Source: a virus
Taxonomy: Duplodnaviria; Caudoviricetes
DNA: 33,461 bases
Reading direction: 5' to 3' (one strand)
Virus record (IMG/VR): IMGVR_UViG_3300042997_002639
Coordinates: 1 to 33,461 of that record
Part shown: piece after piece, positions 5,910-21,577 of the stretch
Position numbering within the stretch: position 1 is the stretch's first letter
How the letters are laid out: every line of letters begins with the position of its first letter
Translations under genes and position numbers: made by a program
Notes under the pieces: model-generated
Databases searched by the model: none
What the model was told of the DNA's origin: nothing
Seen by the model: only the letters and a program-made list of their open reading frames with translations

Positions 5910-5952
5910 ATAGTCCCGAAGCTGCGCGATACGGCCTAACCCTAGAGGGGGT
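5910..5952 (-). promoter_or_regulatory. Putative activator-dependent late promoter (copy 1; holin/lysis operon)
   Basis: Minus strand: CCCCTCTAGGGTT-N22-GACTAT-N7-ATG. Confidence 0.75.
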
Positions 5953-7344: not shown

Positions 7345-10300
7345 CTAATCATTAATTGAGTTATTCAGGCTTTGATGCAGCTTCTGGCGCAACGCACGTG
7401 GCGCCGTGTCTGCGATGCGCTGGTCCTTGGACTTCGCCATCTCGCGCACACGGCGGTTGACGTCTGTGATGCGGATCAACATCGGCTGATCCGGGTTCTT
7501 CGCGTTCCAGGCCGCGATCGCTTCGCGCGCGGCGCGCACCTTCGCTTCGTCCTTCTCGAAGATGCCCGCGGCCCACTCCGCGCGGATCTCCTGCGCCCGC
7601 AGGTTGTAGAAGGCCTTCGCCTGCTGGTTGAGGGCGTTCGCCTCCTGGATGGTGGCCACGCTCTGCGGCTGGAACCCGATGGCCTTGAGCGCAGCCTCGA
7701 GGTGGTTGGTCTCGAGCACCTTGTAGCCCTTGGCGTCGCGATACATGCCGGTGGCGGCCATGTCCACGCCCTTCGCAGCGTTGCGCACGGCCGTGGGTGC
7801 CACTTCCAGCGCGCCGGCGCCGATGTTGCCCTTCGCGACATTCAGCGCGCCGGAGAAAATGCGGCTGGCGAAGTCGCCGGCCGGGCCCGCGATCTCGAGC
7901 ACGTCGCGCGTGTGGCTCGTCTTCTGCTGCAGCAGCCCGGTGCCGGGGATCAGGTTGCCCATGCCCAGGCGGCCGGACACGTCGAGCGGCGCTCCCGGCA
8001 GGCCGCTCACGCCCTTGTCGAGGAAGTCGGCGATGCCCTTCGGCAGCATCGCCTCGAGCACTTCCTGGCGTGCCTTCTTCGCCGAGAAGTTGTAGCCCAG
8101 CAGCTGCGCGAGCGCATCGGCCACGTCCTCGGCATCCTCCGCGAACGGCAGGCCACCCGAGCCGCCCATCAGCATCAGCATGCCCAGCGCCAGCAGCGCG
8201 GCGCGCTTCCCTTCGGGGCCGCCTTGCGTGTACATGCGGTGCAGCAGCTCGAGGTAGGCGATGGAGTAGGTCTTGAATGTCATGAGCGTGCCGCCGACGG
8301 CGCCGCGGCCCCACTGCATCTTCGAAGCCTTCGAGTAGACGAACTGCGTCTCGCGCACCGCGCGGCTGGCGAACGCGGCCGGGTCGGCTTCGCCTCGATC
8401 GCGCGCCACGCGGTAGGCCGCGATGAATGTGATCCGGCGGTTCACTTGCTCGGCTGCACCGAAGACCTTGCCCCAGGCGAGCGACAGTCGCGCCAGCGCG
8501 TTCTGGCCGGCGGCACGCGCCTCGCCCAGCCGTGTGCCGTCGCCGGCGCGCAGCGAGCCCGAGCCGCGGGCCTGCGCCATGAGCTGGTGCACCTCCTGCG
8601 GCGCGACGACACCCTCGTCTTCGGCGGTCTTCAGCGCCTTGGCGAGGTCGGACTCGAACTCGAAGCCCTTCGTGGCAATGTTCTTCGCGGCAGTGCCCAG
8701 CGCCGCGGCCGCCTTGCGCGCGCCGCCAAACTGGCTGAGCCACGGGAAGGTCACTGCGGCTGGCTGCGTCATGTTCACGAACGCCGACGCGATCGACCCG
8801 CCCAGGTACTGGGCGAACAGCAGGCCGCGCACGGCCTGGGCCTCTTCCTGCGGGTTTTTCACGTACTCGGCCAGGCGCACGGCAACGTCTTTCAGCTCGC
8901 CCTGCTCCTTCGGAATCGCGTTCACGGCCTCGCCCAGGTCGCCCATGTTCAGGCCTGCGGCGGTCTGCCGCGCGTTGCTGTAGATGAAGCTGGCCAGCAC
9001 GCGGCCCACGTCCTCACTGAAGCCGGCGATGCCCTTGCGATGGATCAGGCGACGCATGGCGCTGCGGTTGGTTTTCGTGAGCTTCAGGTACTCCTGGAAG
9101 GCCTGGTCCTGCGCGCGATCGCCCGTCGAGTCGAGGCCCAGCGCATTGCCGAACAGCTCGAGCGTCTCGGGCGTGACGCCGGCGAACATCTTGAAGGCCT
9201 CCTCCGAGAGCGTGCCCTGGCTGACTGCGGCCTCGCCGAACTCGCCGCGCATGCGCGCCGCCATCGTGTTGGCATCGCGCGCGGTCTCGAACAGGCCGAA
9301 GTACTGCCGCTCGCCCTTGGCGTCGACGACGTCGACCGAGTAGCGGCCGAAGCGCGACAGCGGCGCGTAGCCGCGCGCCTGCAGGTCGCGCACCTTGTCG
9401 GCCCGATCCATGATGCCGTTCGCGGTGTTCATCAGCAGCGTCGCGCGATCGGGCTGGTCGCCGGCCAGCTGCGCCAGGCGATCGCGGATCAGCACGGCCG
9501 CCGCTTGCGCGTCCGGCGCGTCCATCACTATCGTGCGCAGGCCCTTTGCATCGTCGCCGGCGAAGCGCAGCATGTCGGCGCGCGCCATCGTGTCGAGGCT
9601 GCGGTTCGTCGCCTCCCGGAACTCGCGATACAGCGCCACCTGGTCGTCGGTCAGCTGGAACATGCCGCGCAGTTCGGCATCGCTCCAGACCACGCCCGGC
9701 TGCAGCATGCGCGACTCGTAGCGCGAAGCCACCGCCTTCTCGTAGGACTCGAGTGGCATGCCCTGCCAAGCCTTGAGCATGCGCTCGTCCAGCATGCCGT
9801 TGCGCAGCAGGCGCTGCGCTTTCTGCTCGGAGGTGAGGCCGGCCGCGGCATCGATCAGGGTCTGCACCTGCACGGGCGCGCCCTGTTCGTCGCGCGCCCA
9901 CGTCAGCGTGCCCTCGAACACCGGCTTGGCCACTGCGGTGTTGTCGGCCGCGGAGATCGGCGACTTCTTGATGTCGCGCCAGGTCTCCAGCTTCGGCAGC
10001 AGCTTGGGCGCCAGCTCGGCCGCGTCGGTGGCGTAGTGGCTCACGTCGTCGACAAAGCCCTGTGCCGCGTCGAAGACGGGCTTGAACGCCGGCGAGCGCT
10101 CGGCGACGTTGTACATCGTGCCGATGGTCTTGTGCCACCAGCTGAGCCGACCCGGCGCCGAGAACGTCTTGTTCAGCTCTGCGGCCGCGGTGCGCGCGTA
10201 CTCGCCGACCGTCGAGCGGCTGAACCGAATGTCGCCCTCCTCGCCATCGAAGGCGCCACTGTTGCCGATCGCGCTCTTCACCTGCTCCGGGTGGAGCGCC

Positions 10301-13300
10301 ACGTACTCCGTGGGGTTCTCGGCGATCACTCCGTCGAAGCCCCGGGCGATCAGCTGCCGCCTCACTTCACGACCTCGCTCCACCGAGTCCACAAGGCCGG
10401 CCACGGTTCCCGATTCGCGAATGGCCTGCACGTCAGCGCGCGTCGCAGGGTTCTGGATCGACACGTAGACCGGCATGACGTTTCCGCCGGCCTTGTACCC
10501 GTCCCCCGCGTAGATGCTCGCTCGTTCGGGATCGGCCGTCGTGTAGACGCCTGCTCCCGACTCGCCGTTTTCCGAAAGCGCAAACGTCGAGATGTCGGCG
10601 CGCGTGCCATGGAAGACCACCAGCGGCGCGCCCTGGGCGTCCACCACCTTGCTGTCGCCGAACCACGCGCGGAAGGCGGGCGTCGAGGTCTGGTCGGTGC
10701 TCGTGGGGTTGCCCTGCGCCGGGTTGACGCTGTAGATGCGATCCAGGACACTACGGATTGCTCCGGCATCCGCTCTGGTCTGCAACCCAGCTCCGGCTGC
10801 ACCTGCACCAGCCTCGACGGCGGGCTGCCGGAGCTTCTCTCTCAGGACGACCTCGTGCACGTACATGCGCTTGGCATTCGAGTCCGCCTTCACCAGCACC
10901 ACCTCCACCATCTCGCGATCGCCGATGCGCACCGGCGCGGCGACGTGATAGACCATGCCCGCGTCGCGCGCGCCCTCCATCGCCTCCGCGTGGATGATCT
11001 TGCCGTTCTTCAGCACGTCGGGCACCGCCGCGAAGGCCGTGGCCTTGTCGCGGCCGATGCCGTGGTAGAGGCTGCTCTTCACAGCCTGGCGATCGAGCGA
11101 CACGAGGCCGATGCCGAGCACCTCCACCTGTGCATTGCCCGTTGTCGCATAGTGCTGGGTCACCTTGTCGCTGATGGGCACGCCATCCGGCGCGAACTCC
11201 TTCCCGGTCATCTGCGCCACCGGCGCGCCATCGAGGAAAGCGCGGCTCTCGGCGTCCGGGTCGGTGCCCTCGGCGCGGCTGAACGCGAACCCGGCGCGCG
11301 GCGGCGCGGCCCCCGCGCTGCGCTCCACGAACGCTCGCGCCGGCAGGATGAAGTTCCGGATGATCTCGTCGTCGGTGAGGCGCAGGCCGCGGAAGCCGGG
11401 CACGTTCTCGCGCAACCAGGTGCGGATGGCGGCCACCGCGCGCCGCACGAAGTGCAGCTCGGGCGTGTTCTGCGCCATCTCGGCCAGCACCTCTTCTGCC
11501 GCCGCGCGCCGGTCCAGCTTGTTCACGCCGCGCAGGCCGTACTCGCGCACCTTCGCGTCGACCTCGGCGCGACGCATCGTCGCGATCTGGTTCAGCACGC
11601 CGTCCAGTTGCTTGCCGAAGGTGCCGCGCAGCCCATGGTGGCCCAGCACCTCGTGGTAGAGCACGCGCGCCGCATCCTCGGGCGTGGCCAGCCGGGACGC
11701 CATCAAGTAGGCCTTGCCGCGATAGTAGAAGCCTTCCGGCGCGCCGCGGGCGCCACCGCTGCGCTGGCGCAGATCCGCGCGGCGCGCGGCCTCTGGCACG
11801 GCAGCGTCGTTCATGTCGAAAGCCACGACGATGTCCGGCGCATTGCCCCAGGCGCTGCGGAGCGCGTCGACCGTCTTCCGCACGGTGGCCACGGCCTGCG
11901 TGCGCGCCTGCGGCGAGTAGGTCCGGCGGGACAACGCGCGCATGGCGTCGGCCGCCGCGGGCGACATGCCGGCGAGCCCGTCGTCCGCGCGGCGGAACAG
12001 CGCGGTGTTGCCGTTCTCGCCAGCGCGTGTCTCGATCGTCGCGGCGAGCTGGTCGAACGCCTCGTTGATTCGAGCCCGCTCGAGGCCGGCCGGGTACTGC
12101 ACGCCGGACTCGACGCCGTGCACCAGGTAATCGGAGCGAGCACCCATCGCCTTGATGCGATCGAACACCCAGGACTCGAAGGCGCGCGCGAACATCTCGG
12201 TCGGGCGCGTCCAGTAGCTCTCCTTCCCCTCCTTGATGCCGAGCGACGACTCGTAGTAGCTGCTCTCCTTGCGGCCCTGCCGCACCGCATCGGGCGGTAG
12301 ACCCAGGGTCTCGTTCAAGCTCTGGCGCGCCGACTCGACGCCGCGGCTGTAGATCCGCTTCAGGTCTTCATCGGTGGTGCCGGCCAGGCGCGCCTGCGCG
12401 CGCTCCAGCGTCAGTTCGGCTTCGCGCACCAGCGCCGCGCGATCGAGCTGCTCGCGGTAGATGGTGCTCATGACCCGATCGAACGCGCTGGCGAGCTCCG
12501 GGCGCAGGTTCGCGAGCCGACCGCGGCGGCCCGAAGGCTGTGGGGTGCCGTCGTACCTGCCCTGCTCGTACCAGCCGCTCGCCCCGCGCGCCTTTCCCTG
12601 ATAGGCATCGCCCTGCTCGAGCTCGCCGAAGTAGTGATCCAGCGCGTGCGCCCACTCGTGCGCCAGGCTGCCACCGCCACGGATCTTGGTCATGTTGATG
12701 ACCAGCCGGCCGGGCTCGTAGTGCGCGGCGAAGCGGCCTCCACCGCGCGCGCCGAAGGCCAGGCCCATGGTGCCGTTCAGGCTCATTGCCGAAGGCGGCA
12801 CGCCCATGACCTGTGCGAGGTCGCTCAGGCCGTCGTAGGCCATGTTGATGATGCGCTGGCGCTCGTCCTGCGCGCTCCAGTTGCCGAACTCGATGCCCCG
12901 GAAGCCGAAGTCGCGAATGAAGTCGTCCGGCGTGGCATCGCGGTCCAGGCGCTGCGGCAGGCCTGCGCGCTGCAGCACGTCGAGGTGCGGCCGCTCGGGC
13001 TCCTTGCCACGGGTCGCGCTGGCCAACTCGGCCTCGTAGAGGCGCCGCGCCGCCGCCTCGGCATCCGCGCGCGTCATTGCGTACGCCAGCGTGCGCCCGC
13101 CGATCTGCCGCCGGACCTCGAAATAAGAGCCTGCGATTTGCTCGGCGGTCAGCGGCGTGCCGACCTCCGCAGATTGCTCGAGCGTGAGCTCGCGCCCGCG
13201 AGGCGTGAGCGACTTGCCGCTCGATTCCCGAACCCCGAAGCGCCTGGACCACGGCTCGCCCTTCGCGGGGAACCCGTCGACCACCATCTTGCGCACGCGC

Positions 13301-16300
13301 ATCAGGTCCAAGTGGTCGAGCACGAACGGATCACTACGCCCCTTGTAGACCGAGAACAGCGTGGCGCGCGCCTCGCGCCGATGCGCGGCCAGGTCTTCGA
13401 CGCCCTCGGCGTTGCGCCGCGCGCGATCGCTGCTCGTGGCGCCGAGCCCATCGGTCCACTGCAGGTGGTCGAACAACAGGCGCTCCTTCGCGCCGGCGAT
13501 GTTCTCCGGGGTGAGCTCGCTGTAGACCGCGCGCACCGCCTGCATCATGCGCACGTAGCGGCGGCGGCCCGCCGGCGTGTTGTCCTTCGGCTGGGCCGCG
13601 AGGCGGTCGTAGATCACCTTCGCCGATGCCGCGGTCACGGGGTTCATGCCGCCACCGACCAGCGCCGACCAGTCGGGCTTCCAGATGTTCGCCTTCGTGG
13701 CGAGCTCGGCTCCTTCGGCCTCGCTCATCTCGTTCAGGTCGGACACGTTCAGGCCGCGTTCCTTCCAACGATCCTTGCGCGCGCCGCCGATCTTCTCGCC
13801 TGCATCCTGGATGCTCTCGCCGACAGCCGTGCGCGCAGGCACAGCCTTCGCGGGCTCGCCACGCGCGGCAGGTGCCTCCCGCCGCGCGCGCTGCGGCGTT
13901 GGTGCCGACGAGGTCTCGGCCGCGAGGCCCTTGCGGTCGAAGCGCACACGGCCGCCGGCCAGGTCCGAGCGGTCGAAGTCGGACAGCGCGCGTCGCGTGA
14001 GCAGACGCAGCTTTTTGACGTCGGAGGCCTTCATCTCCACGGACTGCACAGCGCGCGGCGCGATGATGTCCACGGAGTACTCGCGCCCCGCAAGCGCGCC
14101 GGTCCCCGGCTTTGCGTGCTCGCGCCCGCTCAACGAATCCGGTCGGAACGCGACCTTGACGCCGGTGTTGTCGCCTTGGCCGAGGGCCAGGTCGGGGTTG
14201 TCCGTGACGAACATGCCCGACCGAAAATCAGCTTGGGCATCCATGCGCAGCAGGTCGTCCAGGCCGCTCGGGCTCGTCTCGCGATAGAGCGGTCGACCGC
14301 TCGCGATAGAACGCGGCGTGACCCTGCCGCCGGGACCAATGCTCATGGGAGGGAGGCTGGTCACGCGCGGGAACCGTTCGTCCTCACGCGGCGCTGGAGC
14401 TGGTGCCGGCGCCGATGTATCGTCGGTCGTGGAGCTCGGAAACTCCCGGGCTACCTCGAGCAGCTGATCAATCGGGGCGTCCAGGCGGATCGTGCGCACG
14501 TCCTCGCCCTTCTCCCGTGCGGCAAGCCACTGGTGGTGGCCATCGAGCACGTGGCCATCGCTGGACACCAGGATCGCGCGATCGCCACCGGTGAACTCGC
14601 TGGCCCGCTGCACGCGCTCGGGGCTGAACTCCGCTTGGGTCGGCTTGAGGCTGTCGGCCGGCACCGTCTCTTCGGCATGCGCGATGCCGCGAGCATTCAT
14701 GAAGTTGACCATCGCACCGCGGTGCTCTGCGCGGATCTGCGGCATCTGCGCGCGCGGCACGCCCTTCGTTCCAGAGTCCGCCGCGAAGGTCGCCCATTCG
14801 CCATCCGCCAGGCGGCCCGATTGCTTGGCGGCCGGCAGCGGCTCACGCGGTTCGGGGCGCGCAGTTGGGACGGTCGGCGCGGCCGGCGCCGTGCTGGCGG
14901 CGGTCTTCTGCTTCACCACGAAGCGCCGGTTCTCCGGCACCACTTCGTGCGTGCCGTCCAGGCCGTTCTCGCTCACGAAGGCTTCGGCCTTGCCCTGCGA
15001 GAGGAACCATGCCTTGCCGTCCTCGACACGCTGCAGCGCCTTCTCGCGCCGCGCCGTCGACACTGCCCTGCCCTCGACGCTGGGAACTGGAGCTTCGGCC
15101 GCGGCCGCTGCTGGTGCTGCTGGCGCTGGCGCCTTCGCGCGCCGGCCGCGCGCCCGCGCAATGCCGTCCTGCACGCTGGTCGGTGCCTCCGACGCCGGCG
15201 CGGTCGTGGCCGGCGTGACCGGCGCCGCTACTGCTTGCGCTGGTTCGACTTGTCCTTGTTGGACTGGAGCTGCTGCAGCAGCCGGTCGCGCGCCTTCGGT
15301 GACATCTGCCGCAGGCGCAGCAGCGCCGCCAGCACGTTCTTCCGGGCCTGCGGCTCCGCGGGCAGCTTGAATGGCATCTGCAATCTCCTGATCGTTCGCG
15401 CCGAGGGCGCGGAGGAATTGTTCATCGGTGACGTTGCGGCCGCCGAAGTCGGGCACGTCGTCCGCGAGCGCGGCGGCGATGTGCCCCTCGGTCTCACGGT
15501 CGAGCGCGCGGAAGTAGTCGTCGTAGAGCGCGCGATCGCGCTCGTCGAGGTCGGAGTAGTCGAGCACCGGCGGCGCCGCGCGGTTCGCGGCCGTGGCCTG
15601 CTCCTGCTCGGCCAGCGCCGCGACGTCGGCCTGGCGCTGCGCGTCCTGCAGCAGCTGGCCGTGCGCGCCGGAATTCACCGCGATCGCCGCGCCGGTGGAG
15701 AGCGGCCCCGCGGCAGGGTCGATGCCCATGGCCTGCGACGGCAGCGGTGCTGCGCGCGCGACCGGTGCGCCAGCTCGCGTCTCGGTGGTCGGGGGGGACG
15801 GCTGCGGCGACAGCCCCATGAGGCGCGCGCGCTCGGCGGCGCGCTGGTTTTCCGGCAGTCGCGCGAGGTAGGCATCGACCTCGGCCTGCCGGCCGACGGT
15901 TCCGTCGGGGAACGCGACCAGCGTGTCCGGCTGGTAGCCGAGCTGCAGTGGGTCAGGAGCGGGTGCGGGCGCCGGCGCCGCAGCCGCTGGCTCGCCGCGC
16001 GCGCCGACGCCGTGCACCAGCGCCGCGCCGCCGCCCATCGCGCCGCCGGCCAGCAGGCCCTGCGCCGCGGAGGCCCCGACGCCCTCACCCACGGGCTTGT
16101 CGAGCGCGAGGTTCTGCAGCGCCTGCTCGGCCATCGACTGCGGCACCTCCTCGAGGACGCCCTCGGACAGCACGCCCTCGCCGACTTGCCGCGCCAGCGA
16201 GCGCTGCGAAGCGGGGCCCGCGCCGCGGATCGCACCTTGCGCCAGCATGGTGTCGGCGTCGCCGATGCCGAGGCGCTGCGCGGCACGGCCGCCAGCAGCA

Positions 16301-16893
16301 CCGAATGCCGCGGTGGTCACGCCGCTGACTGCTGCCAGCGCTGCCTGCTTCGGCGTCAGCAGGCCGTCCTGGGTCTCCTGCCGGATCTGCTCTGCCTGCG
16401 AGCCAGCACCCAGCACGCCTTCGCCGATGGCCCCGGCGATCGCCGGCGCGACCCGCGCGCCCGTGGCCAGCACCCCGCGCGCAACGCCGGCGCCGCCGAG
16501 CATCTGCGGGATCGATTCGCCCACGCTGGTCGCGATCGTGCTCGGGTTCTCGAGCATCGCCTGGGCCGTGCCCACGAAGCCGTCGGCCTCGGCCACCTTC
16601 TGGTTGGCGGCCTTCTGCGCGTCGGAGTACTGATCGGCGAGGAAGGCCTGCGTGTCCTTGAACCGCACGCCTGCATCCTCGACCGCCTTGCCTGCCTGGC
16701 CGCCAGTCACGAGATCCGCGAGGCCGACAACGCTCTGCGGCAGACCCACGGCGCCCTTCAGCGCGGTGATGCCGACGTCTTTCGCGACGTCGAGCGCGGT
16801 GCGCCTCGGTGGTTCGCTGCTCGCGTCCTCGTAGGAGAAACCGCGAGCGACCGGCTTGCTGGCGTCGTCGTAGGAAAAGGAATCTTGAGCCAT
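7345..16893 (-). CDS. Giant polyvalent internal virion/ejection protein (PLxRFG-type) with ParB/Srx-like, ART-like, LPD5, LPD1, zincin, LPD3 and ART-PolyVal modules
   Basis: 3182 aa. Motifs: LKPTQ...ILVSSDGHVLDGHHQW; IQDAGEKIGGARKD; FRGIEFGNW...LAFGARG...AHYEP...SLAHEWAHALD...EMFARAFE; HEVLGHHG...EEVLA; FRAWFGDSKVVD...VFHGT...GVYTT...VMPVYV...GFDGVI...EY...QVKSAIGN; YAPLSRFG. Confidence 0.9.
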   Translation of the reverse strand: MAQDSFSYDDASKPVARGFSYEDASSEPPRRTALDVAKDVGITALKGAVGLPQSVVGLADLVTGGQAGKAVEDAGVRFKDTQAFLADQYSDAQKAANQKVAEADGFVGTAQAMLENPSTIATSVGESIPQMLGGAGVARGVLATGARVAPAIAGAIGEGVLGAGSQAEQIRQETQDGLLTPKQAALAAVSGVTTAAFGAAGGRAAQRLGIGDADTMLAQGAIRGAGPASQRSLARQVGEGVLSEGVLEEVPQSMAEQALQNLALDKPVGEGVGASAAQGLLAGGAMGGGAALVHGVGARGEPAAAAPAPAPAPDPLQLGYQPDTLVAFPDGTVGRQAEVDAYLARLPENQRAAERARLMGLSPQPSPPTTETRAGAPVARAAPLPSQAMGIDPAAGPLSTGAAIAVNSGAHGQLLQDAQRQADVAALAEQEQATAANRAAPPVLDYSDLDERDRALYDDYFRALDRETEGHIAAALADDVPDFGGRNVTDEQFLRALGANDQEIADAIQAARGAAGPEERAGGAAAPAADVTEGARPAAAAAPVQQGQVEPAQAVAAPVTPATTAPASEAPTSVQDGIARARGRRAKAPAPAAPAAAAAEAPVPSVEGRAVSTARREKALQRVEDGKAWFLSQGKAEAFVSENGLDGTHEVVPENRRFVVKQKTAASTAPAAPTVPTARPEPREPLPAAKQSGRLADGEWATFAADSGTKGVPRAQMPQIRAEHRGAMVNFMNARGIAHAEETVPADSLKPTQAEFSPERVQRASEFTGGDRAILVSSDGHVLDGHHQWLAAREKGEDVRTIRLDAPIDQLLEVAREFPSSTTDDTSAPAPAPAPREDERFPRVTSLPPMSIGPGGRVTPRSIASGRPLYRETSPSGLDDLLRMDAQADFRSGMFVTDNPDLALGQGDNTGVKVAFRPDSLSGREHAKPGTGALAGREYSVDIIAPRAVQSVEMKASDVKKLRLLTRRALSDFDRSDLAGGRVRFDRKGLAAETSSAPTPQRARREAPAARGEPAKAVPARTAVGESIQDAGEKIGGARKDRWKERGLNVSDLNEMSEAEGAELATKANIWKPDWSALVGGGMNPVTAASAKVIYDRLAAQPKDNTPAGRRRYVRMMQAVRAVYSELTPENIAGAKERLLFDHLQWTDGLGATSSDRARRNAEGVEDLAAHRREARATLFSVYKGRSDPFVLDHLDLMRVRKMVVDGFPAKGEPWSRRFGVRESSGKSLTPRGRELTLEQSAEVGTPLTAEQIAGSYFEVRRQIGGRTLAYAMTRADAEAAARRLYEAELASATRGKEPERPHLDVLQRAGLPQRLDRDATPDDFIRDFGFRGIEFGNWSAQDERQRIINMAYDGLSDLAQVMGVPPSAMSLNGTMGLAFGARGGGRFAAHYEPGRLVINMTKIRGGGSLAHEWAHALDHYFGELEQGDAYQGKARGASGWYEQGRYDGTPQPSGRRGRLANLRPELASAFDRVMSTIYREQLDRAALVREAELTLERAQARLAGTTDEDLKRIYSRGVESARQSLNETLGLPPDAVRQGRKESSYYESSLGIKEGKESYWTRPTEMFARAFESWVFDRIKAMGARSDYLVHGVESGVQYPAGLERARINEAFDQLAATIETRAGENGNTALFRRADDGLAGMSPAAADAMRALSRRTYSPQARTQAVATVRKTVDALRSAWGNAPDIVVAFDMNDAAVPEAARRADLRQRSGGARGAPEGFYYRGKAYLMASRLATPEDAARVLYHEVLGHHGLRGTFGKQLDGVLNQIATMRRAEVDAKVREYGLRGVNKLDRRAAAEEVLAEMAQNTPELHFVRRAVAAIRTWLRENVPGFRGLRLTDDEIIRNFILPARAFVERSAGAAPPRAGFAFSRAEGTDPDAESRAFLDGAPVAQMTGKEFAPDGVPISDKVTQHYATTGNAQVEVLGIGLVSLDRQAVKSSLYHGIGRDKATAFAAVPDVLKNGKIIHAEAMEGARDAGMVYHVAAPVRIGDREMVEVVLVKADSNAKRMYVHEVVLREKLRQPAVEAGAGAAGAGLQTRADAGAIRSVLDRIYSVNPAQGNPTSTDQTSTPAFRAWFGDSKVVDAQGAPLVVFHGTRADISTFALSENGESGAGVYTTADPERASIYAGDGYKAGGNVMPVYVSIQNPATRADVQAIRESGTVAGLVDSVERGREVRRQLIARGFDGVIAENPTEYVALHPEQVKSAIGNSGAFDGEEGDIRFSRSTVGEYARTAAAELNKTFSAPGRLSWWHKTIGTMYNVAERSPAFKPVFDAAQGFVDDVSHYATDAAELAPKLLPKLETWRDIKKSPISAADNTAVAKPVFEGTLTWARDEQGAPVQVQTLIDAAAGLTSEQKAQRLLRNGMLDERMLKAWQGMPLESYEKAVASRYESRMLQPGVVWSDAELRGMFQLTDDQVALYREFREATNRSLDTMARADMLRFAGDDAKGLRTIVMDAPDAQAAAVLIRDRLAQLAGDQPDRATLLMNTANGIMDRADKVRDLQARGYAPLSRFGRYSVDVVDAKGERQYFGLFETARDANTMAARMRGEFGEAAVSQGTLSEEAFKMFAGVTPETLELFGNALGLDSTGDRAQDQAFQEYLKLTKTNRSAMRRLIHRKGIAGFSEDVGRVLASFIYSNARQTAAGLNMGDLGEAVNAIPKEQGELKDVAVRLAEYVKNPQEEAQAVRGLLFAQYLGGSIASAFVNMTQPAAVTFPWLSQFGGARKAAAALGTAAKNIATKGFEFESDLAKALKTAEDEGVVAPQEVHQLMAQARGSGSLRAGDGTRLGEARAAGQNALARLSLAWGKVFGAAEQVNRRITFIAAYRVARDRGEADPAAFASRAVRETQFVYSKASKMQWGRGAVGGTLMTFKTYSIAYLELLHRMYTQGGPEGKRAALLALGMLMLMGGSGGLPFAEDAEDVADALAQLLGYNFSAKKARQEVLEAMLPKGIADFLDKGVSGLPGAPLDVSGRLGMGNLIPGTGLLQQKTSHTRDVLEIAGPAGDFASRIFSGALNVAKGNIGAGALEVAPTAVRNAAKGVDMAATGMYRDAKGYKVLETNHLEAALKAIGFQPQSVATIQEANALNQQAKAFYNLRAQEIRAEWAAGIFEKDEAKVRAAREAIAAWNAKNPDQPMLIRITDVNRRVREMAKSKDQRIADTAPRALRQKLHQSLNNSIND

Positions 16894-16899
16894 CCCCCC

Positions 16900-16941
16900 A
16901 TCCTCTGCACGAGGGAGGGGGTAGTCGAACCCTAGAGGGGT
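16900..16941 (-). promoter_or_regulatory. Putative late promoter (copy 2; giant protein gene)
   Basis: Minus strand: CCCCTCTAGGGTT-N22-GAGGAT-N6-ATG. Confidence 0.72.
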
Positions 16942-16997
16942 CCGCCCCTCGCGGGGTAGAGTCCGGTCACCACAACAGGACCCCGCGAGGGGCGGAC
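16940..16997. repeat. Perfect 18-bp inverted repeat with a 22-nt spacer
   Basis: GTCCGCCCCTCGCGGGGT (16940-16957) and ACCCCGCGAGGGGCGGAC (16980-16997). Confidence 0.9.
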
Positions 16998-17011
16998 GAA
17001 AGGATCAGGAC

Positions 17012-17551
17012 ATGGATGCTTCGCATCTGGGCGCGCTTTCAACGTCTCTCGGTATCGCCAGAGACCTGGCGAAAGCCCTTGTCGGCTTGCGGGACTGGAA
17101 TCTCGTCGCCGAAAAGGTAACGACGTTGCACGACCAGATCCTCAAGGCCCAGGATGCTCTGCTCTCGCACAACGCCTCCACGTTCGAGTTGCAGAACAAG
17201 TACTTCGAGGCCTGCGAGGAGCTGCGAAAACTGAAAGAAGCCATCAACGAGAAGGGCCGCTACTCGTTGGTCGAGCTCGGTTTCGGCTTCCATGCGTACC
17301 GGGAAAATGTCACCCCAGAGCAAAGCGGGACCGGCCAGCCAGGCCCGCCGCAGCCTGAGCGCTACTTCTGTCAGTCGTGCATGGACCGCGGGGCTAAGCT
17401 GGTGCTCCAGTCCCGTTTCGAGGAGGGGGTCTGCATCGGCTGGCGATGCACCGGCTGCAACACCACCCTGCTGAATGGGCAGGGAGTCGCTATGCTCGCC
17501 AAGCCAGTGGCTACCGCGTCCGGTGGCAGCAGATTCAGGACCTTCACCTAG
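17012..17551 (+). CDS. Moron: coiled-coil protein with a C-terminal zinc ribbon
   Basis: AGGA SD. Amphipathic helix and coiled coil, then YFCQSC...WRCTGC (two CxxC). Opposite strand to the late genes. Confidence 0.8.
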   Translation: MDASHLGALSTSLGIARDLAKALVGLRDWNLVAEKVTTLHDQILKAQDALLSHNASTFELQNKYFEACEELRKLKEAINEKGRYSLVELGFGFHAYRENVTPEQSGTGQPGPPQPERYFCQSCMDRGAKLVLQSRFEEGVCIGWRCTGCNTTLLNGQGVAMLAKPVATASGGSRFRTFT

Positions 17552-17938
17552 ACCAAGATGGGTGACCAGCTTCGCCATCGCATCAGCCTTCGGAGCCAAC
17601 CGGTCGGCCACCGCGCCACTTGAGCCGGGCGTTGGGCGTTTCGGCTTGCCTTGGATCGCCGCCTCCGGTTCGGGCGGCTCTCGGCGACCTCCGAAACCAG
17701 CAGCGCGAGCGATGTCATCGGCAGTGATGCTGGGCAGCGGTGTCGCCTCAATCGCGGCCATGCTCGCAGACCACATTGCCTTGAGCGAGCGTGCGGCGGA
17801 CAGCGCCGCCTGTGCCCTGGATTCGGTAGCGCCAAAGTCACGCTCCGAACGCACGGCCTCGACGCCCATGTGAGGCAAAGAGAACCGGCGAGTCCGCCCG
17901 GCGCGCAGCCTCATCAGGTGCCAGGAAGCATGATGCAT
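17039..17938 (-). CDS. Hypothetical protein; the 5' ~130 codons are probably real, while the 3' part runs antisense through the zinc-ribbon moron
   Basis: ATG at 17938 is TGATG-coupled to the upstream 49-aa ORF. The frame stays open to 17039. Confidence 0.4.
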   Translation of the reverse strand: MHHASWHLMRLRAGRTRRFSLPHMGVEAVRSERDFGATESRAQAALSAARSLKAMWSASMAAIEATPLPSITADDIARAAGFGGRREPPEPEAAIQGKPKRPTPGSSGAVADRLAPKADAMAKLVTHLGLGEGPESAATGRGSHWLGEHSDSLPIQQGGVAAGASPADADPLLETGLEHQLSPAVHARLTEVALRLRRAWLAGPALLWGDIFPVRMEAETELDQRVAALLVDGFFQFSQLLAGLEVLVLQLERGGVVREQSILGLEDLVVQRRYLFGDEIPVPQADKGFRQVSGDTERR

Positions 17939-18087
17939 CACCCACCTCCTTCTGCTTCAGGGCTCGGAGCGGCCAGCCATGCCGGCGGCTCCCCGACATA
18001 GGCGCGCAGGACGTATCCGCCGCCTTCCGTGATGAAGTGACCGTCCGAGGCGTGGATGAGGCGCTCGGGCTCGAGTTCGATGTTCAT
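17938..18087 (-). CDS. Small hypothetical protein (49 aa, MNIELEPERLIHASDGHF...), probably leaderless
   Basis: The ATG lies 6 nt after the -10 hexamer of promoter copy 3, and its stop is coupled to the next ATG. Confidence 0.55.
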   Translation of the reverse strand: MNIELEPERLIHASDGHFITEGGGYVLRAYVGEPPAWLAAPSPEAEGGG

Positions 18088-18093
18088 GGGACC

Positions 18094-18135
18094 AGTCTGG
18101 CTTTGCTCCGAGCGTGCGCCGAACCCCACAGGGGT
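18094..18135 (-). promoter_or_regulatory. Putative late promoter (copy 3)
   Basis: Minus strand: CCCCTGTGGGGTT-N22-CAGACT-N6-ATG. Confidence 0.7.
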
Positions 18136-18147
18136 GCGGTCGTGTCC

Positions 18148-18156
18148 TGCTACATT
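18148..18156 (+). promoter_or_regulatory. Candidate sigma70 extended -10 promoter of the membrane moron
   Basis: TG-C-TACATT, 30 nt upstream of ATG 18187. Confidence 0.5.
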
Positions 18157-18186
18157 TCGTTTCATCCGAAGTCCCCGGAGCGAGGA

Positions 18187-18615
18187 ATGGAACAAGCAAC
18201 CGCCGAGCAGCCCTCATCAGCGCTGCGCCTCGGACGCCACGCCGTCGGCATCATGATCGCGGCACTGGCCAACCCGATGATCTACTTCGACACCGATAAG
18301 GTGCTGGTCTGGCTCGCGACCTGGGGCCCGGTGCTGATCGCCACGGCCGTGATTTACGGCCTGCTGACCCTGTTTCTCACGCGGCGCGCGCGGGCCGCGT
18401 GGCCAGGCGGCGCCATCGCGCTCGCTTGGGTGCTTCTGCTGCTTCTCGTCGTGGGGAACTGGATGAACTATCGCGAAGCCACGTCGCGCGCCGCTCCCTC
18501 TGCCGCAGAAGCCCCAATCGACTGGGAAAAAGGCGCGATGAAGGCGCCGGCAACAAATGAATCGCCGTCCCGCGCATTCACCTACGAGGAAGCTGCCGGC
18601 GCGTCTAAGCGTTAG
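18187..18615 (+). CDS. Moron: 142-aa three-TM inner-membrane protein, candidate superinfection exclusion protein
   Basis: ATG at 18187. Three hydrophobic segments with an RRARAA loop before the last, then a flexible tail containing PIDWEKG and RAFTYEEAA. Convergent 4-nt overlap with the ejection gene. Confidence 0.75.
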   Translation: MEQATAEQPSSALRLGRHAVGIMIAALANPMIYFDTDKVLVWLATWGPVLIATAVIYGLLTLFLTRRARAAWPGGAIALAWVLLLLLVVGNWMNYREATSRAAPSAAEAPIDWEKGAMKAPATNESPSRAFTYEEAAGASKR

Positions 18616-20723
18616 ACCGGCTGGAACATCGAGCCGTCCCAGCGCGCCGCTCCCCGCGCGGTCTGGTACACCTGCCCTCGTACGAGCTTGTCCTTCGGGG
18701 GCAGCGGCTGCGGAGCACTCGCCCCCTGACCCTGATCCAGCCGCCGCACCTCACCCGTTGCCGAGTTGACCGCGGCCAGCACGCCCTCGGTCTTGTTGCC
18801 CGATGCGTCGGTGCTGCCCTGCAGCGCCACGGGCTTCCACTCGCCCCCTGCGACTTTCCCCTGCATCGCAAGCAGCCCTTGCTGCGCGCGGGCCCGCTCC
18901 GACACCGAGGTCTTCGGGTCGAGCACGATGCGACGTAGCGCGGCCTCGTCCTCTGCAGCCGCGACCTGGGTATCGCGCAGACGGTTGGCGCTGCCCACTT
19001 CCTCGCGGCGGATCGAGTTGGTGTCGGCCGCGCGCCGGTCCTCGGCGGCGATGCGCTCGGCCTGCAGCCGTGCGGCGGCCGCCTCGCGCTGGGCCGCGCT
19101 CTGGAATCCCAGACCCGCCCGCTGCGTATCGGCGGCCTGGCGCCCGGCCTCGAGCTCTGCCTGCTGGCGGTTCTGCACCGGAATGGCCGCCGCCGCCACC
19201 GCGCCCTGGTCCGACTGGAAGCCACGCCGCGGCGACCAGGAGCCGCGCGCGGCGGCAGTGCGCAGATCGGCGTCATCGAAGAAGCGCTGGCGCGCTGCCT
19301 GCCCAAAGCCCGCGCCATCGATCACGGCAAGACCCGGCGCCTGATCGCTGGGCGCCCGCCAGGTCTGCTTGTCCTTCTCGTGGGCGATGTCTCGATTCAT
19401 CTGCGCCACGCGCTCCGCACTCGACACGAAACCGAACCCGGTGCCGGACGCAGCGTCTGCGGCCGGCGCTGCCGCCGCGGCTGCGGGCGCCGATGGCGCG
19501 ACCGCAGCAGGCACCGCCAGCGTGGGCGTGGGCGTCGTCGTTGCGGGAGCCACTGGCGCCGGAGCTGGAGCGCTGATCCCGAACACCGGTGCGACACCTT
19601 GGCGCGCCGCCTCGGCGCCGGCGGCACGGTCGCGTGCGTCCTGATCGAAGCGCGCAACCACGCGAGATTGCTGCTCGTCGGTCAGCGGGTAGCCACTGAA
19701 CCGGAGCGAGGCGTCGTTCGCTGCGGCCACCGCGTCAGCAGCGGGCCGCGCCGGCGGCGGATTGATCGCTCCACGGCCGGCACCAGCTGCCGACGGCGCG
19801 CCGAAGCCCGCCAGCTGCTGCGCCTGCGGGCTCGGCGGCAGGGAGGGCGTCAGCATCGGCAGCGGTGCCGGGATGCTCGCGCCGAGATCCCTGCTGCCGG
19901 TGCTGGCAGCCGCCGGGCGCGGCGCGCCGAGCTGCGTGACGCTCGAGTCGCGCGCGGCTGCCGCGGCGTCACCGAAGCTGTTCGAGCGGCGGCGCTCCTC
20001 CTCGTCGACCACGCCGCCGTTGGCGTAGCCTCGCGGCCTGAACCCGAGGCCGGCCCCGCTACGCGGGTCCACGGCAGCCGGCGTCGCCCGGCCAAATGCG
20101 CCCGTGGCCGATGTGGGGCCGAACCCACCGGGCGGCGAGGCGGCCGGCAGCATGCGCACCGACGTTTCCGGCACGCCCGGCACCGCCGCGGGCGCGGAGG
20201 GTGCGACCGGTGCGCCAATCGAGCTCATGGTGCCGCCGGGCGCGCCGCCGTTGATCGAGACCCGGCCGGAGACGTTGCCGCCGCTGTACGAGTTCCCCTC
20301 CCGGCTCACGAGGCCGCCGTCGGCGAAGAACATCGCGTCCGAAGCGCTGCCGGGGCCGAAGCCAAGGCCTTCGCCCACCTGCTCGTGCGTCGCGTTCTTC
20401 AGCGCGTCCAGTGCCTGCACGCCGACCGCATGCACCTGCTCGGGCGGCAGCTCGTACTCGCCGTTGCTGAGCCGCACGTCGACGCCCTTGCGCTGGGACT
20501 TCGGCGTGAAGCCGCGCGCACCCATGCCGGCCAGCGCCTGGTCGCCGATCTGCGCTGTGGAGTCCGCCGGCATGATGTACGTCCCGGCCGGCACGGTGTC
20601 CTCGATGGAATCGGACGTGCCGGTACCGGGTCCGCGGATCACGCCGCCTTCGGCCGTGCGCTGGCGCGCGCCGGCTGGTTGGTGAGGCGCCTTCCGCGCC
20701 GAGGCTGGTTGAAAGCCGTACAT
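18612..20723 (-). CDS. Putative ejection/internal virion protein (703 aa)
   Basis: Start reassigned to ATG 20723 (SD AAGGTGA, promoter upstream). GGVIRGPGTGTSDSI and VRLSNGEY motifs, FADGG/YANGG, a long Ala/Pro/Gly disordered region, coiled coil, and a small C-terminal GQVYQTARGAARWDGSMF domain. Confidence 0.7.
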   Translation of the reverse strand: MYGFQPASARKAPHQPAGARQRTAEGGVIRGPGTGTSDSIEDTVPAGTYIMPADSTAQIGDQALAGMGARGFTPKSQRKGVDVRLSNGEYELPPEQVHAVGVQALDALKNATHEQVGEGLGFGPGSASDAMFFADGGLVSREGNSYSGGNVSGRVSINGGAPGGTMSSIGAPVAPSAPAAVPGVPETSVRMLPAASPPGGFGPTSATGAFGRATPAAVDPRSGAGLGFRPRGYANGGVVDEEERRRSNSFGDAAAAARDSSVTQLGAPRPAAASTGSRDLGASIPAPLPMLTPSLPPSPQAQQLAGFGAPSAAGAGRGAINPPPARPAADAVAAANDASLRFSGYPLTDEQQSRVVARFDQDARDRAAGAEAARQGVAPVFGISAPAPAPVAPATTTPTPTLAVPAAVAPSAPAAAAAAPAADAASGTGFGFVSSAERVAQMNRDIAHEKDKQTWRAPSDQAPGLAVIDGAGFGQAARQRFFDDADLRTAAARGSWSPRRGFQSDQGAVAAAAIPVQNRQQAELEAGRQAADTQRAGLGFQSAAQREAAAARLQAERIAAEDRRAADTNSIRREEVGSANRLRDTQVAAAEDEAALRRIVLDPKTSVSERARAQQGLLAMQGKVAGGEWKPVALQGSTDASGNKTEGVLAAVNSATGEVRRLDQGQGASAPQPLPPKDKLVRGQVYQTARGAARWDGSMFQPV

Positions 20724-20752: not shown

Positions 20753-20795
20753 ATTGTTCCAACCCGTCGATGTCGCGCCAAACCCCAAAGGGGGT
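20753..20795 (-). promoter_or_regulatory. Putative late promoter (copy 4)
   Basis: Minus strand: CCCCTTTGGGGTT-N22-AACAAT, then a short leader with an SD. Confidence 0.75.
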
Positions 20796-20833: not shown

Positions 20834-21577
20834 ATGATGACAAGAGCAAAGCATCTGGAGATTGGGCTGGCCGCAGTGGCCGCAATTGCCACGTTGGTTC
20901 CATTAGCCTTGTGGGCTGTACACGTCGGGAAGCCGACGTTTTCAGCCAAGGCTAGCGACTGGGCAGACTTCGGCACTTACGTCGGCGGTGTGTTATCCCC
21001 TTTGCTCGCATTCGCAGGCTACATTGGGCTGCTATTCACGATCCGCCAGCAGCGCGAGGCGGCTTGGAAGCAGCAGGAAGATCGAGATGGAAAAGACTAC
21101 TTCAATCACGCCGTCAGTTGCCTCGAGCGAGCCTTTGCCACGATCAGCGCAAATGGAGAGAGTCGAACGCCCGTCAATGAAAGATTGGCTTGGCTGACGT
21201 GCGCGAGACTGCTTCTCTCTGCGCAGGCTGCAGCGAATCTCATCGCGAAAGAATCCACCGGACTCCGCACTTTGTATGAAGGTGAATCTGAGCACTGGCG
21301 GCGGCAGTTCTATGAGCTTTTTCGACCAACCTCGCCGGATTCATTTGGCAATGAGGCAGTCTATTTTCTCGTCGATCGGGGCACGCCGTCCCAGCCGATT
21401 GATGAACGATCGACTCGCGTCATTTACGACTTCATTTCTTGGCCACCGGAAAAGGAAGATCCGATTGACCAGGTTGAGCGCTACAGCGACGAAGAGATCG
21501 ACAAAATGCGGAGGACTGTCGGCAAGCTTGGGCTGGCGCGCGCGCTGATGAGTTGGAGAGGAACGACCAGGGGGTAA
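20834..21577 (+). CDS. Moron: membrane-anchored protein (two TM segments plus a helical domain); function unknown
   Basis: Lower GC and opposite strand. TM1, then WADFGTYVGGVLSPLLAF...TIRQQ, then RLAWLTCARLLL. Candidate extended -10 TGGTACGCT at 20795-20803. Confidence 0.8.
   Translation: MMTRAKHLEIGLAAVAAIATLVPLALWAVHVGKPTFSAKASDWADFGTYVGGVLSPLLAFAGYIGLLFTIRQQREAAWKQQEDRDGKDYFNHAVSCLERAFATISANGESRTPVNERLAWLTCARLLLSAQAAANLIAKESTGLRTLYEGESEHWRRQFYELFRPTSPDSFGNEAVYFLVDRGTPSQPIDERSTRVIYDFISWPPEKEDPIDQVERYSDEEIDKMRRTVGKLGLARALMSWRGTTRG

What the first reader, a model, noticed from the sequence alone, without database searches (positions are those of the whole stretch)
16820..18615. Membrane moron whose tail copies the N-terminal motif of the giant ejection protein: candidate superinfection exclusion by peptide mimicry
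Seen: the 3182-aa protein begins MAQDSFSYDDASKPVARGFSYEDASS, which carries F-S-Y-[DE]-D-A twice. The otherwise unrelated 142-aa plus-strand membrane protein (18187..18615) ends SRAFTYEEAAGASKR (motif at 18571-18597). RAFTYEEAA versus RGFSYEDAS has 5 identities and 4 conservative changes. The gene sits between the two ejection genes, in the opposite orientation, with its own candidate promoter. The RRARAA loop before the last TM places the tail in the periplasm by the positive-inside rule. Established: P22 SieA is an inner-membrane exclusion protein encoded next to the ejection genes that blocks DNA entry. Inference: the N-terminal motif is a docking peptide used to build the ejection conduit, and the lysogen displays a membrane-tethered decoy that jams incoming related phages. 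I know of no described exclusion system working this way.
Basis: partly seen in the sequence, partly recalled or inferred. Interest (0 to 1): 0.92.

Follow-up and report, generated by a model that had tools for sequence, protein, structure and literature searches.

The report
Prophage decoy copies injection docking peptide
A small membrane protein of this phage ends in a copy of the short peptide that starts its giant virion protein, and across related phages this copy, the peptide and the tip of a neighbouring protein switch type together, which likely marks a lock-and-key joint of the DNA-injection machine and an untested decoy that would block rival phages.

Summary
Confirmed and extended. 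The window is an F116/H66-like temperate podophage. Alone, the FTYEEA match is unremarkable: another of 246 window ORFs scores as high. Across relatives it is strong. The moron tail matches its own phage's giant-protein N-terminal peptide in 12 of 15 loci (permutation p 1e-5), in several different peptide types. The peptide type also tracks a ~30-residue C-terminal mini-domain of the upstream protein (18612-20723): 64 of 66 classified loci, partial Mantel r 0.68. 84 of 113 moron homologs carry such a peptide, 17 carry several types, and the window's moron also has a non-self one (IDWEKG). At least five unrelated exported scaffolds carry the same peptides. Charge bias puts the tail in the periplasm, and a conserved extended -10 lies upstream. 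Best reading (0.65): a type-specific decoy that blocks DNA injection; it would work like P22 SieA but is not a SieA. Not found in nine literature searches. This scan noted the same pattern before on other DNA (e1-5909720 and others).

The parts
7345..16893 (-). Giant virion protein G (3182 aa; LPD1, LPD3, ART-PolyVal); likely an ejected protein
   Evidence: Pfam; PHROGs; N-domain matches F116/H66 'structural'/'PLxRFG' proteins and an N4-like vRNAP N-region (E 7e-7)
16861..16878 (-). G N-terminal peptide copy 1, FSYDDA
16822..16839 (-). G N-terminal peptide copy 2, FSYEDA
18187..18615 (+). Moron (142 aa): three predicted membrane helices, disordered tail; candidate decoy
   Evidence: 112 homologs; no PHROG or PADLOC family, only a sub-threshold DUF6234 in Pfam
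18577..18594 (+). Tail peptide FTYEEA (self type)
18517..18534 (+). Tail peptide IDWEKG (non-self type; heads G in L053, L055, L081, L119, L137, L198)
18148..18156 (+). Conserved extended -10-like element TGCTACATT, 39 nt upstream of the moron ATG
18612..20723 (-). Upstream protein U (703 aa); likely periplasmic-tunnel-type ejection protein (inferred from position and size)
   Evidence: upstream leftward element at 20779-20793 supports this start
18615..18704 (-). C-terminal mini-domain of U (GQVYQTARG...WDG type); predicted receptor of the F[ST]YE[ED]A peptide
16926..16940 (-). Repeated leftward element upstream of G (also at 5936, 18120, 20779, 24153); possible late-gene signal
   Evidence: 7 matches, 2.1 expected
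17012..17551 (+). Second accessory gene (179 aa, phrog_1244, unknown function); no peptide copy

Best explanation
The moron is likely a superinfection-exclusion decoy: a predicted inner-membrane protein whose tail copies the doubled peptide at the start of the giant protein G, and which would occupy the C-terminal mini-domain of the neighbouring protein U of an incoming phage, the predicted docking site for that peptide. Shown in sequence: G starts with a doubled peptide, U ends in a ~30-residue mini-domain, the two come in matched types that swap together, and antisense exported genes carry the peptides. Inferred: U and G are ejected proteins; U's mini-domain binds G's peptide to join the periplasmic tunnel to the inner-membrane part; the lysogen makes the moron from its extended -10 promoter and shows the peptide in the periplasm; capture of U stalls DNA entry. 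This allele would block phages of the FSYE type (its own) and of the DWEKG type.
For: Tail versus own G in 15 loci: mean score 41.5 against 23.9 +/- 2.4, p 1e-5; 12 of 15 have shuffle p < 0.05. G type versus U mini-domain type is concordant in 64 of 66 classified loci; class-free partial Mantel r 0.68 on 63 loci, null max 0.155. The window, L001 and L002 are sisters (93-94% core identity, support 97) with three different G and U types. Searching with U's end alone returned G starts with FS[YF]E[ED]A in 10 of 11 new readable loci. L239 was predicted from moron and U, then confirmed. 84 of 113 homolog tails carry a G-type peptide (shuffled 1.3, max 5) and 17 carry two or more types. Unrelated scaffolds with signal or anchor segments carry cognate peptides. 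K+R is 2.8 in the loop before the last helix versus 0.4 in the first loop. No excess codon identity (49 of 107, expected 53). Analogy: T7 gp16-N stabilises gp15's C-terminal region in the periplasm (PMC8954989, passages); the N4 model joins gp51's C-terminus to gp50-NTD (PMC13434306, passages); SieA escape mutants map to ejection proteins (PMC10883804).
Against: No binding, expression or exclusion data; the RNA runs gave no test. L019, L021 and L023 lack a significant cognate match. In L015 and L085, U and G types disagree and the decoy follows U. 29 of 113 tails match no class pattern, and a motif-less subgroup exists. U was not found in 56 of 134 G loci, many with other N-termini, so the rule was tested on 78. 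In phage DEV, gp72 co-migrated with gp71-C and not gp71-N (PMC11445570, passage), and the XC38 vRNAP has no doubled peptide. U and G have no solved relatives, so their ejection role is inferred.
Confidence: 0.65

Rival explanations
1. The peptide is bait rather than a passive decoy: binding of an incoming U makes the membrane part cluster and damage or depolarise the membrane (abortive infection).
For: The three-helix scaffold is conserved, also in tail-less or motif-less members; some members carry extra folded domains (L021, L114).
Against: The same peptides sit on small signal-peptide proteins with no membrane body (L014, L203, L211, L221), which fits competition better than signalling.
Confidence: 0.1
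2. The moron acts in the phage's own cycle, for example holding U away from G or from the membrane during assembly, or protecting progeny at lysis.
For: Most tails match the phage's own type (12 of 15), and the gene is always tail-to-tail with U where U is present.
Against: Many loci have no such gene (U-G gap 0-160 nt); non-self and multi-type tails are common; the tail is predicted periplasmic while assembly is cytoplasmic; the gene is antisense with a host-type promoter element.
Confidence: 0.1
3. G's peptide and U's mini-domain do not bind each other; both co-vary because they meet a third partner (portal, another virion protein or a host envelope protein), and the moron blocks that partner.
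For: Co-variation alone shows no direct contact; DEV gp72 did not co-migrate with gp71-N.
Against: Types switch between sister phages with near-identical G cores and recur across host families; a satellite with proteins unrelated to U and G shows the same peptide/mini-domain pairing.
Confidence: 0.11
4. The tail is a functionless relic copied from G's 5' end and carried along with U's 3' end by linkage.
For: A 23-nt, 83% inverted repeat links the two sites in the window; linkage does explain joint inheritance.
Against: No excess codon identity over 13 loci; peptides on at least five unrelated exported scaffolds; only the peptide, not its flanks, is kept.
Confidence: 0.04

Closest known systems
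Phage P22 SieA (PMC10883804; abstract, passages and part 1 of 2 of the Discussion read)
   Same: Small three-helix inner-membrane prophage protein; proposed to act on ejection proteins at DNA entry.
   Different: No family hit links the two, and the SieA motif FxRYPxEAxxFNK is absent. Two SieA types showed no difference in target range, whereas here the tail changes with target type. The parts read propose no mimicry.
T7 gp15/gp16, N4 gp51/gp50 and DEV gp72/gp71 ejection proteins (PMC8954989, PMC13434306, PMC11445570; passages)
   Same: A tunnel-type gene followed by a giant ejected protein; tunnel C-terminus contacts the giant; G's N-domain matches an N4-like vRNAP N-region.
   Different: The passages read describe no swappable peptide/mini-domain pair; DEV gp72 binds gp71-C; XC38 lacks the doubled peptide.
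HK97 gp15, TP-J34 Ltp, Tuc2009 Sie (as summarised in PMC10883804)
   Same: Membrane morons that block DNA injection; escape maps to the conduit protein.
   Different: They target long-tailed phages; no peptide copy of the target is described there.
Entry-exclusion groups of conjugative elements (Eex/TraG of SXT/R391; recalled, no call)
   Same: Type-specific exclusion by an inner-membrane protein matched to a variable part of the transfer machine.
   Different: Conjugation, not phage ejection; not known to me to work by copying a docking peptide.
F116/H66-like Pseudomonas podophages and GP4-like tail module
   Same: Homologous giant protein (about 47% over the N-domain) and GP4 gp77/gp80 homologs.
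   Different: The Pseudomonas loci of this type fetched here have U and G adjacent (gap 0-20 nt) with no moron between.

Membership tests
P22 SieA | Sequence relationship to SieA types A-C, including FxRYPxEAxxFNK | tested here: not met
   Motif absent from the sequence; no PHROG, PADLOC or above-threshold Pfam family; no direct alignment to SieA was run
P22 SieA | Small integral membrane protein with three helices | tested here: met
   Model helices 11-27, 38-63, 74-102 (pLDDT 66, pTM 0.32); the hydropathy script called 2 or 3 helices per member
Injection-blocking Sie morons | Accessory antisense gene with own promoter beside virion genes | tested here: met
   (promoter is a conserved element, activity not shown)
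Injection-blocking Sie morons | Expressed in the lysogen | tested here: inconclusive
   1 and 0 reads in two raw RNA runs; contigs of relatives only in a third
Injection-blocking Sie morons | Blocks DNA entry but not adsorption; escape mutants in conduit proteins | not testable with these tools
   Needs phage and host
Podophage ejection proteins (U, G) | Large unstructured-looking virion genes after the tail module, the last one giant | tested here: met
Podophage ejection proteins (U, G) | Homology to a solved ejection protein | tested here: not met
   PDB sequence searches with the G N-domain and U mini-domain profiles found nothing meaningful; the U body was not searched
Podophage ejection proteins (U, G) | Packaged in the virion and ejected into the envelope | not testable with these tools
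   Inferred from homolog annotations and the phi24B proposal for its polyvalent giant (bioRxiv 10.64898/2026.04.10.717836, passage)

The most novel reading that the evidence does not exclude
Podophage injection machines are joined by an interchangeable code of about a dozen peptide/mini-domain pairs, and prophages and satellites fight over it: exported decoys, arisen on at least five scaffolds, collect one to several peptides as a target list against rival phages, and phages escape by swapping the pair.
Probability: 0.55. Interest if true: 0.93.

Novelty: new variant of a known kind. Interest (0 to 1): 0.86.

Why it matters
How ejection proteins couple to each other, why their ends are so mosaic, and how exclusion proteins recognise them are open questions (the SieA paper says so). 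Here all three reduce to small testable parts: a 6-10-residue peptide, a 30-residue domain and a decoy. If true, a lysogen's exclusion range could be read from sequence, which bears on prophage competition and on choosing therapeutic phages, and the pairs would be a set of tiny orthogonal protein connectors.

Tried and rejected
Complex prediction of U mini-domain with the moron tail was not available: no verdict. The fold of the mini-domain did not finish (job, last asked). Fold searches of the moron model were not run. The Atlas gave only hypothetical proteins (best 0.90) and weak structural rows. The moron had no match in GenBank phages. RNA evidence: no test. The sigma-70 scan found no promoter. 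A recent DNA copy from the phage's own G was rejected. In the scan of all gap genes, 18 of 79 candidates were flagged; 3 of these (L169, L182, L189) look like chance and were not counted as decoys. A first tail count parsed only 78 of 113 proteins and was redone on all 113. The tree is the quick IQ-TREE run; the careful run did not finish. Literature searches (listings and abstract starts) showed no description of the peptide pairs or of decoys; the library lacks most subscription papers, and no supplements were read.
Full report
Setting. The window is a virus record with integrase, lysis genes, a GP4-like tail module and a 3182-aa polyvalent protein G. G's N-domain matches 40 GenBank phage records, 36 of them Pseudomonas phages such as F116 and H66, and weakly an N4-like vRNAP. 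U (18612-20723) lies upstream of G on the same strand. That U and G are ejected proteins is inferred from position, size and homolog annotation; neither profile I searched has a solved relative.

The observation. It is as described. Alone it is weak: score 32, shuffle p 0.008, and one other of 246 window ORFs scores 33. The tail also holds IDWEKG, which heads G in other phages.

Moron and G co-vary. Locus searches gave 20 distinct family members. G was readable in 15; L107, L110, L111, L115 and L117 were left out, and the L118 start was moved by hand to its second ATG. Tail versus own G scored a mean of 41.5 against 23.9 +/- 2.4 (max 36.1 in 100,000 permutations). 12 of 15 had shuffle p < 0.05; L019, L021 and L023 did not. 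The cognate pair was top or tied in 8 of 15; most others were beaten by a locus of the same type, and the window by its second peptide. Types include FSYE, WWxxGAK, LKPFxGxLD, IDxxL, NPFxDPxYG, FFDQFD, DWEKG and PW (labels are mine). At identical residues 49 of 107 codons were the same, against 53 expected, so the likeness is kept at protein level (13 loci).

A third partner. U's last ~30 residues come in types that match G's peptide. U was found in 78 of 134 distinct G loci. Of these, 66 were classified on both sides and 64 agree; the patterns were written after seeing the data, and two U types serve two G types each. A class-free test on 63 loci (L061 and L036 dropped by hand as doubtful calls, the rest thinned at 90%) gave Mantel r 0.69, partial r 0.68 on core identity, null max 0.155, and r 0.75 among 1253 distant pairs. 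The window, L001 and L002 form a clade of support 97 with three different types. As a forward test, a search with U's end alone gave 11 new loci with a readable downstream start: 10 begin with doubled FS[YF]E[ED]A and L228 has a variant on both sides. For L231, moron and U predicted G's type, and the fetched DNA confirmed it. The mini-domain hits 695 cluster representatives; 144 of the best 150 carry it at the very end, and only 34 of the 94 long ones match my U-body profile, so it travels as a module. Exceptions: L015 and L085, where the decoy follows U rather than G.

Decoy features. Of 113 family proteins (plus the window's), 84 carry at least one G-type peptide (shuffled mean 1.3, max 5) and 17 carry two or more types; class-free, 70 of 108 tails beat all 20 of their shuffles, about 5 expected. 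The search profile included tails and may favour such members. Unrelated exported proteins in the same slot carry cognate peptides: a cysteine-rich signal-peptide family (L014, L079, L084, L091, L203, L211, L218, L221), two other membrane families (L081, L181; L204, L208), and L022, L057/L060, L068. Of 21 distinct FSYE-type U ends, 10 have an antisense gene ending in F[ST]YE[ED]A, on three scaffolds. Charge counts on 22 aligned members (K+R 1.5 N-terminal, 0.4 first loop, 2.8 second loop) and the model (three helices, disordered tail; low pTM 0.32) favour N-in, C-out. An extended -10-like element stands upstream in 12 of 21 loci. Expression could not be tested.

Mechanism. I infer that U's mini-domain grips G's peptide, joining tunnel to inner-membrane part, and that the doubled peptide lets one G engage two U copies (speculation). 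Where U's end and G's start are adjacent, one short exchange swaps both. A periplasmic copy of the peptide would capture U of an incoming phage of that type. Non-self and multiple peptides, and absence from many loci, argue for action against other phages. Precedent is mixed: T7 gp16-N stabilises gp15's C-terminal region (PMC8954989, passages) and the N4 model links gp51's C-terminus with gp50-NTD (PMC13434306, passages), but DEV gp72 co-migrated only with gp71-C (PMC11445570, passage). I put the decoy reading at 0.65; bait-and-kill, an own-cycle role and a third partner at about 0.1 each; a relic at 0.04.

Comparison and novelty. It would work like P22 SieA (PMC10883804; abstract, passages, part 1 of 2 of the Discussion) but fails sequence membership, and SieA types did not differ in target range. 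That sieA lies beside the ejection genes is recalled, not checked. Nine searches showed no description of the pairs or the decoys. I class it as a new variant of injection-blocking exclusion, with an undescribed coupling module behind it. The scan's own unchecked notes report the same pattern on other DNA; my reading was written down before that look-up, and those notes are not counted as support.

Noticed in passing
L240/L241 (G287:C142): A satellite-like element (PriCT-2/AAA primase by Pfam; integrase-like and small-terminase-like ORFs judged by eye) encodes its own pair: a 477-aa ORF ending in a GYRFLGGDP-type mini-domain followed by a 750-aa ORF starting with a doubled GPW peptide, neither hit by my U or G profiles. 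Its moron homolog ends in a non-self FDP-type peptide.
   Followed up: partly
window 5936, 16926, 18120, 20779, 24153 (- strand): A 15-nt element 33-106 nt upstream of leftward gene starts; 7 matches in all, 2.1 expected. Possible late promoter or activator site.
   Followed up: partly
window 16940-16997: Perfect 18-bp inverted repeat upstream of G, also seen in L001; possible terminator.
   Followed up: no
L235, L237, L238: Tail-less 87-98-aa chromosomal relatives of the membrane scaffold (E 7e-7 to 3e-5), beside a response regulator or transporter gene; possible origin of the scaffold.
   Followed up: partly
L018, L029, L062, L069, L171 and others: Many G homologs start with small folded-looking domains instead of doubled peptides, and my U profile finds no U there: another coupling style.
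   Followed up: no
L005, L034, L048, L053, L057, L095, L240: A DUF4124-like exported family with a C-terminal cysteine domain often fills the slots beside U; only L057/L060 carry a cognate peptide.
   Followed up: partly
L015/L067 G start: G carries two peptide types, each doubled; the same G occurs with two different U types.
   Followed up: partly
window 17012-17551 (+), 17938-18087 (-), 20834-21577 (+): Further accessory genes of unknown function (phrog_1244; a 49-aa ORF shared with L001; a lower-GC membrane-anchored gene, phrog_8999); no PADLOC hit for the two tested.
   Followed up: no
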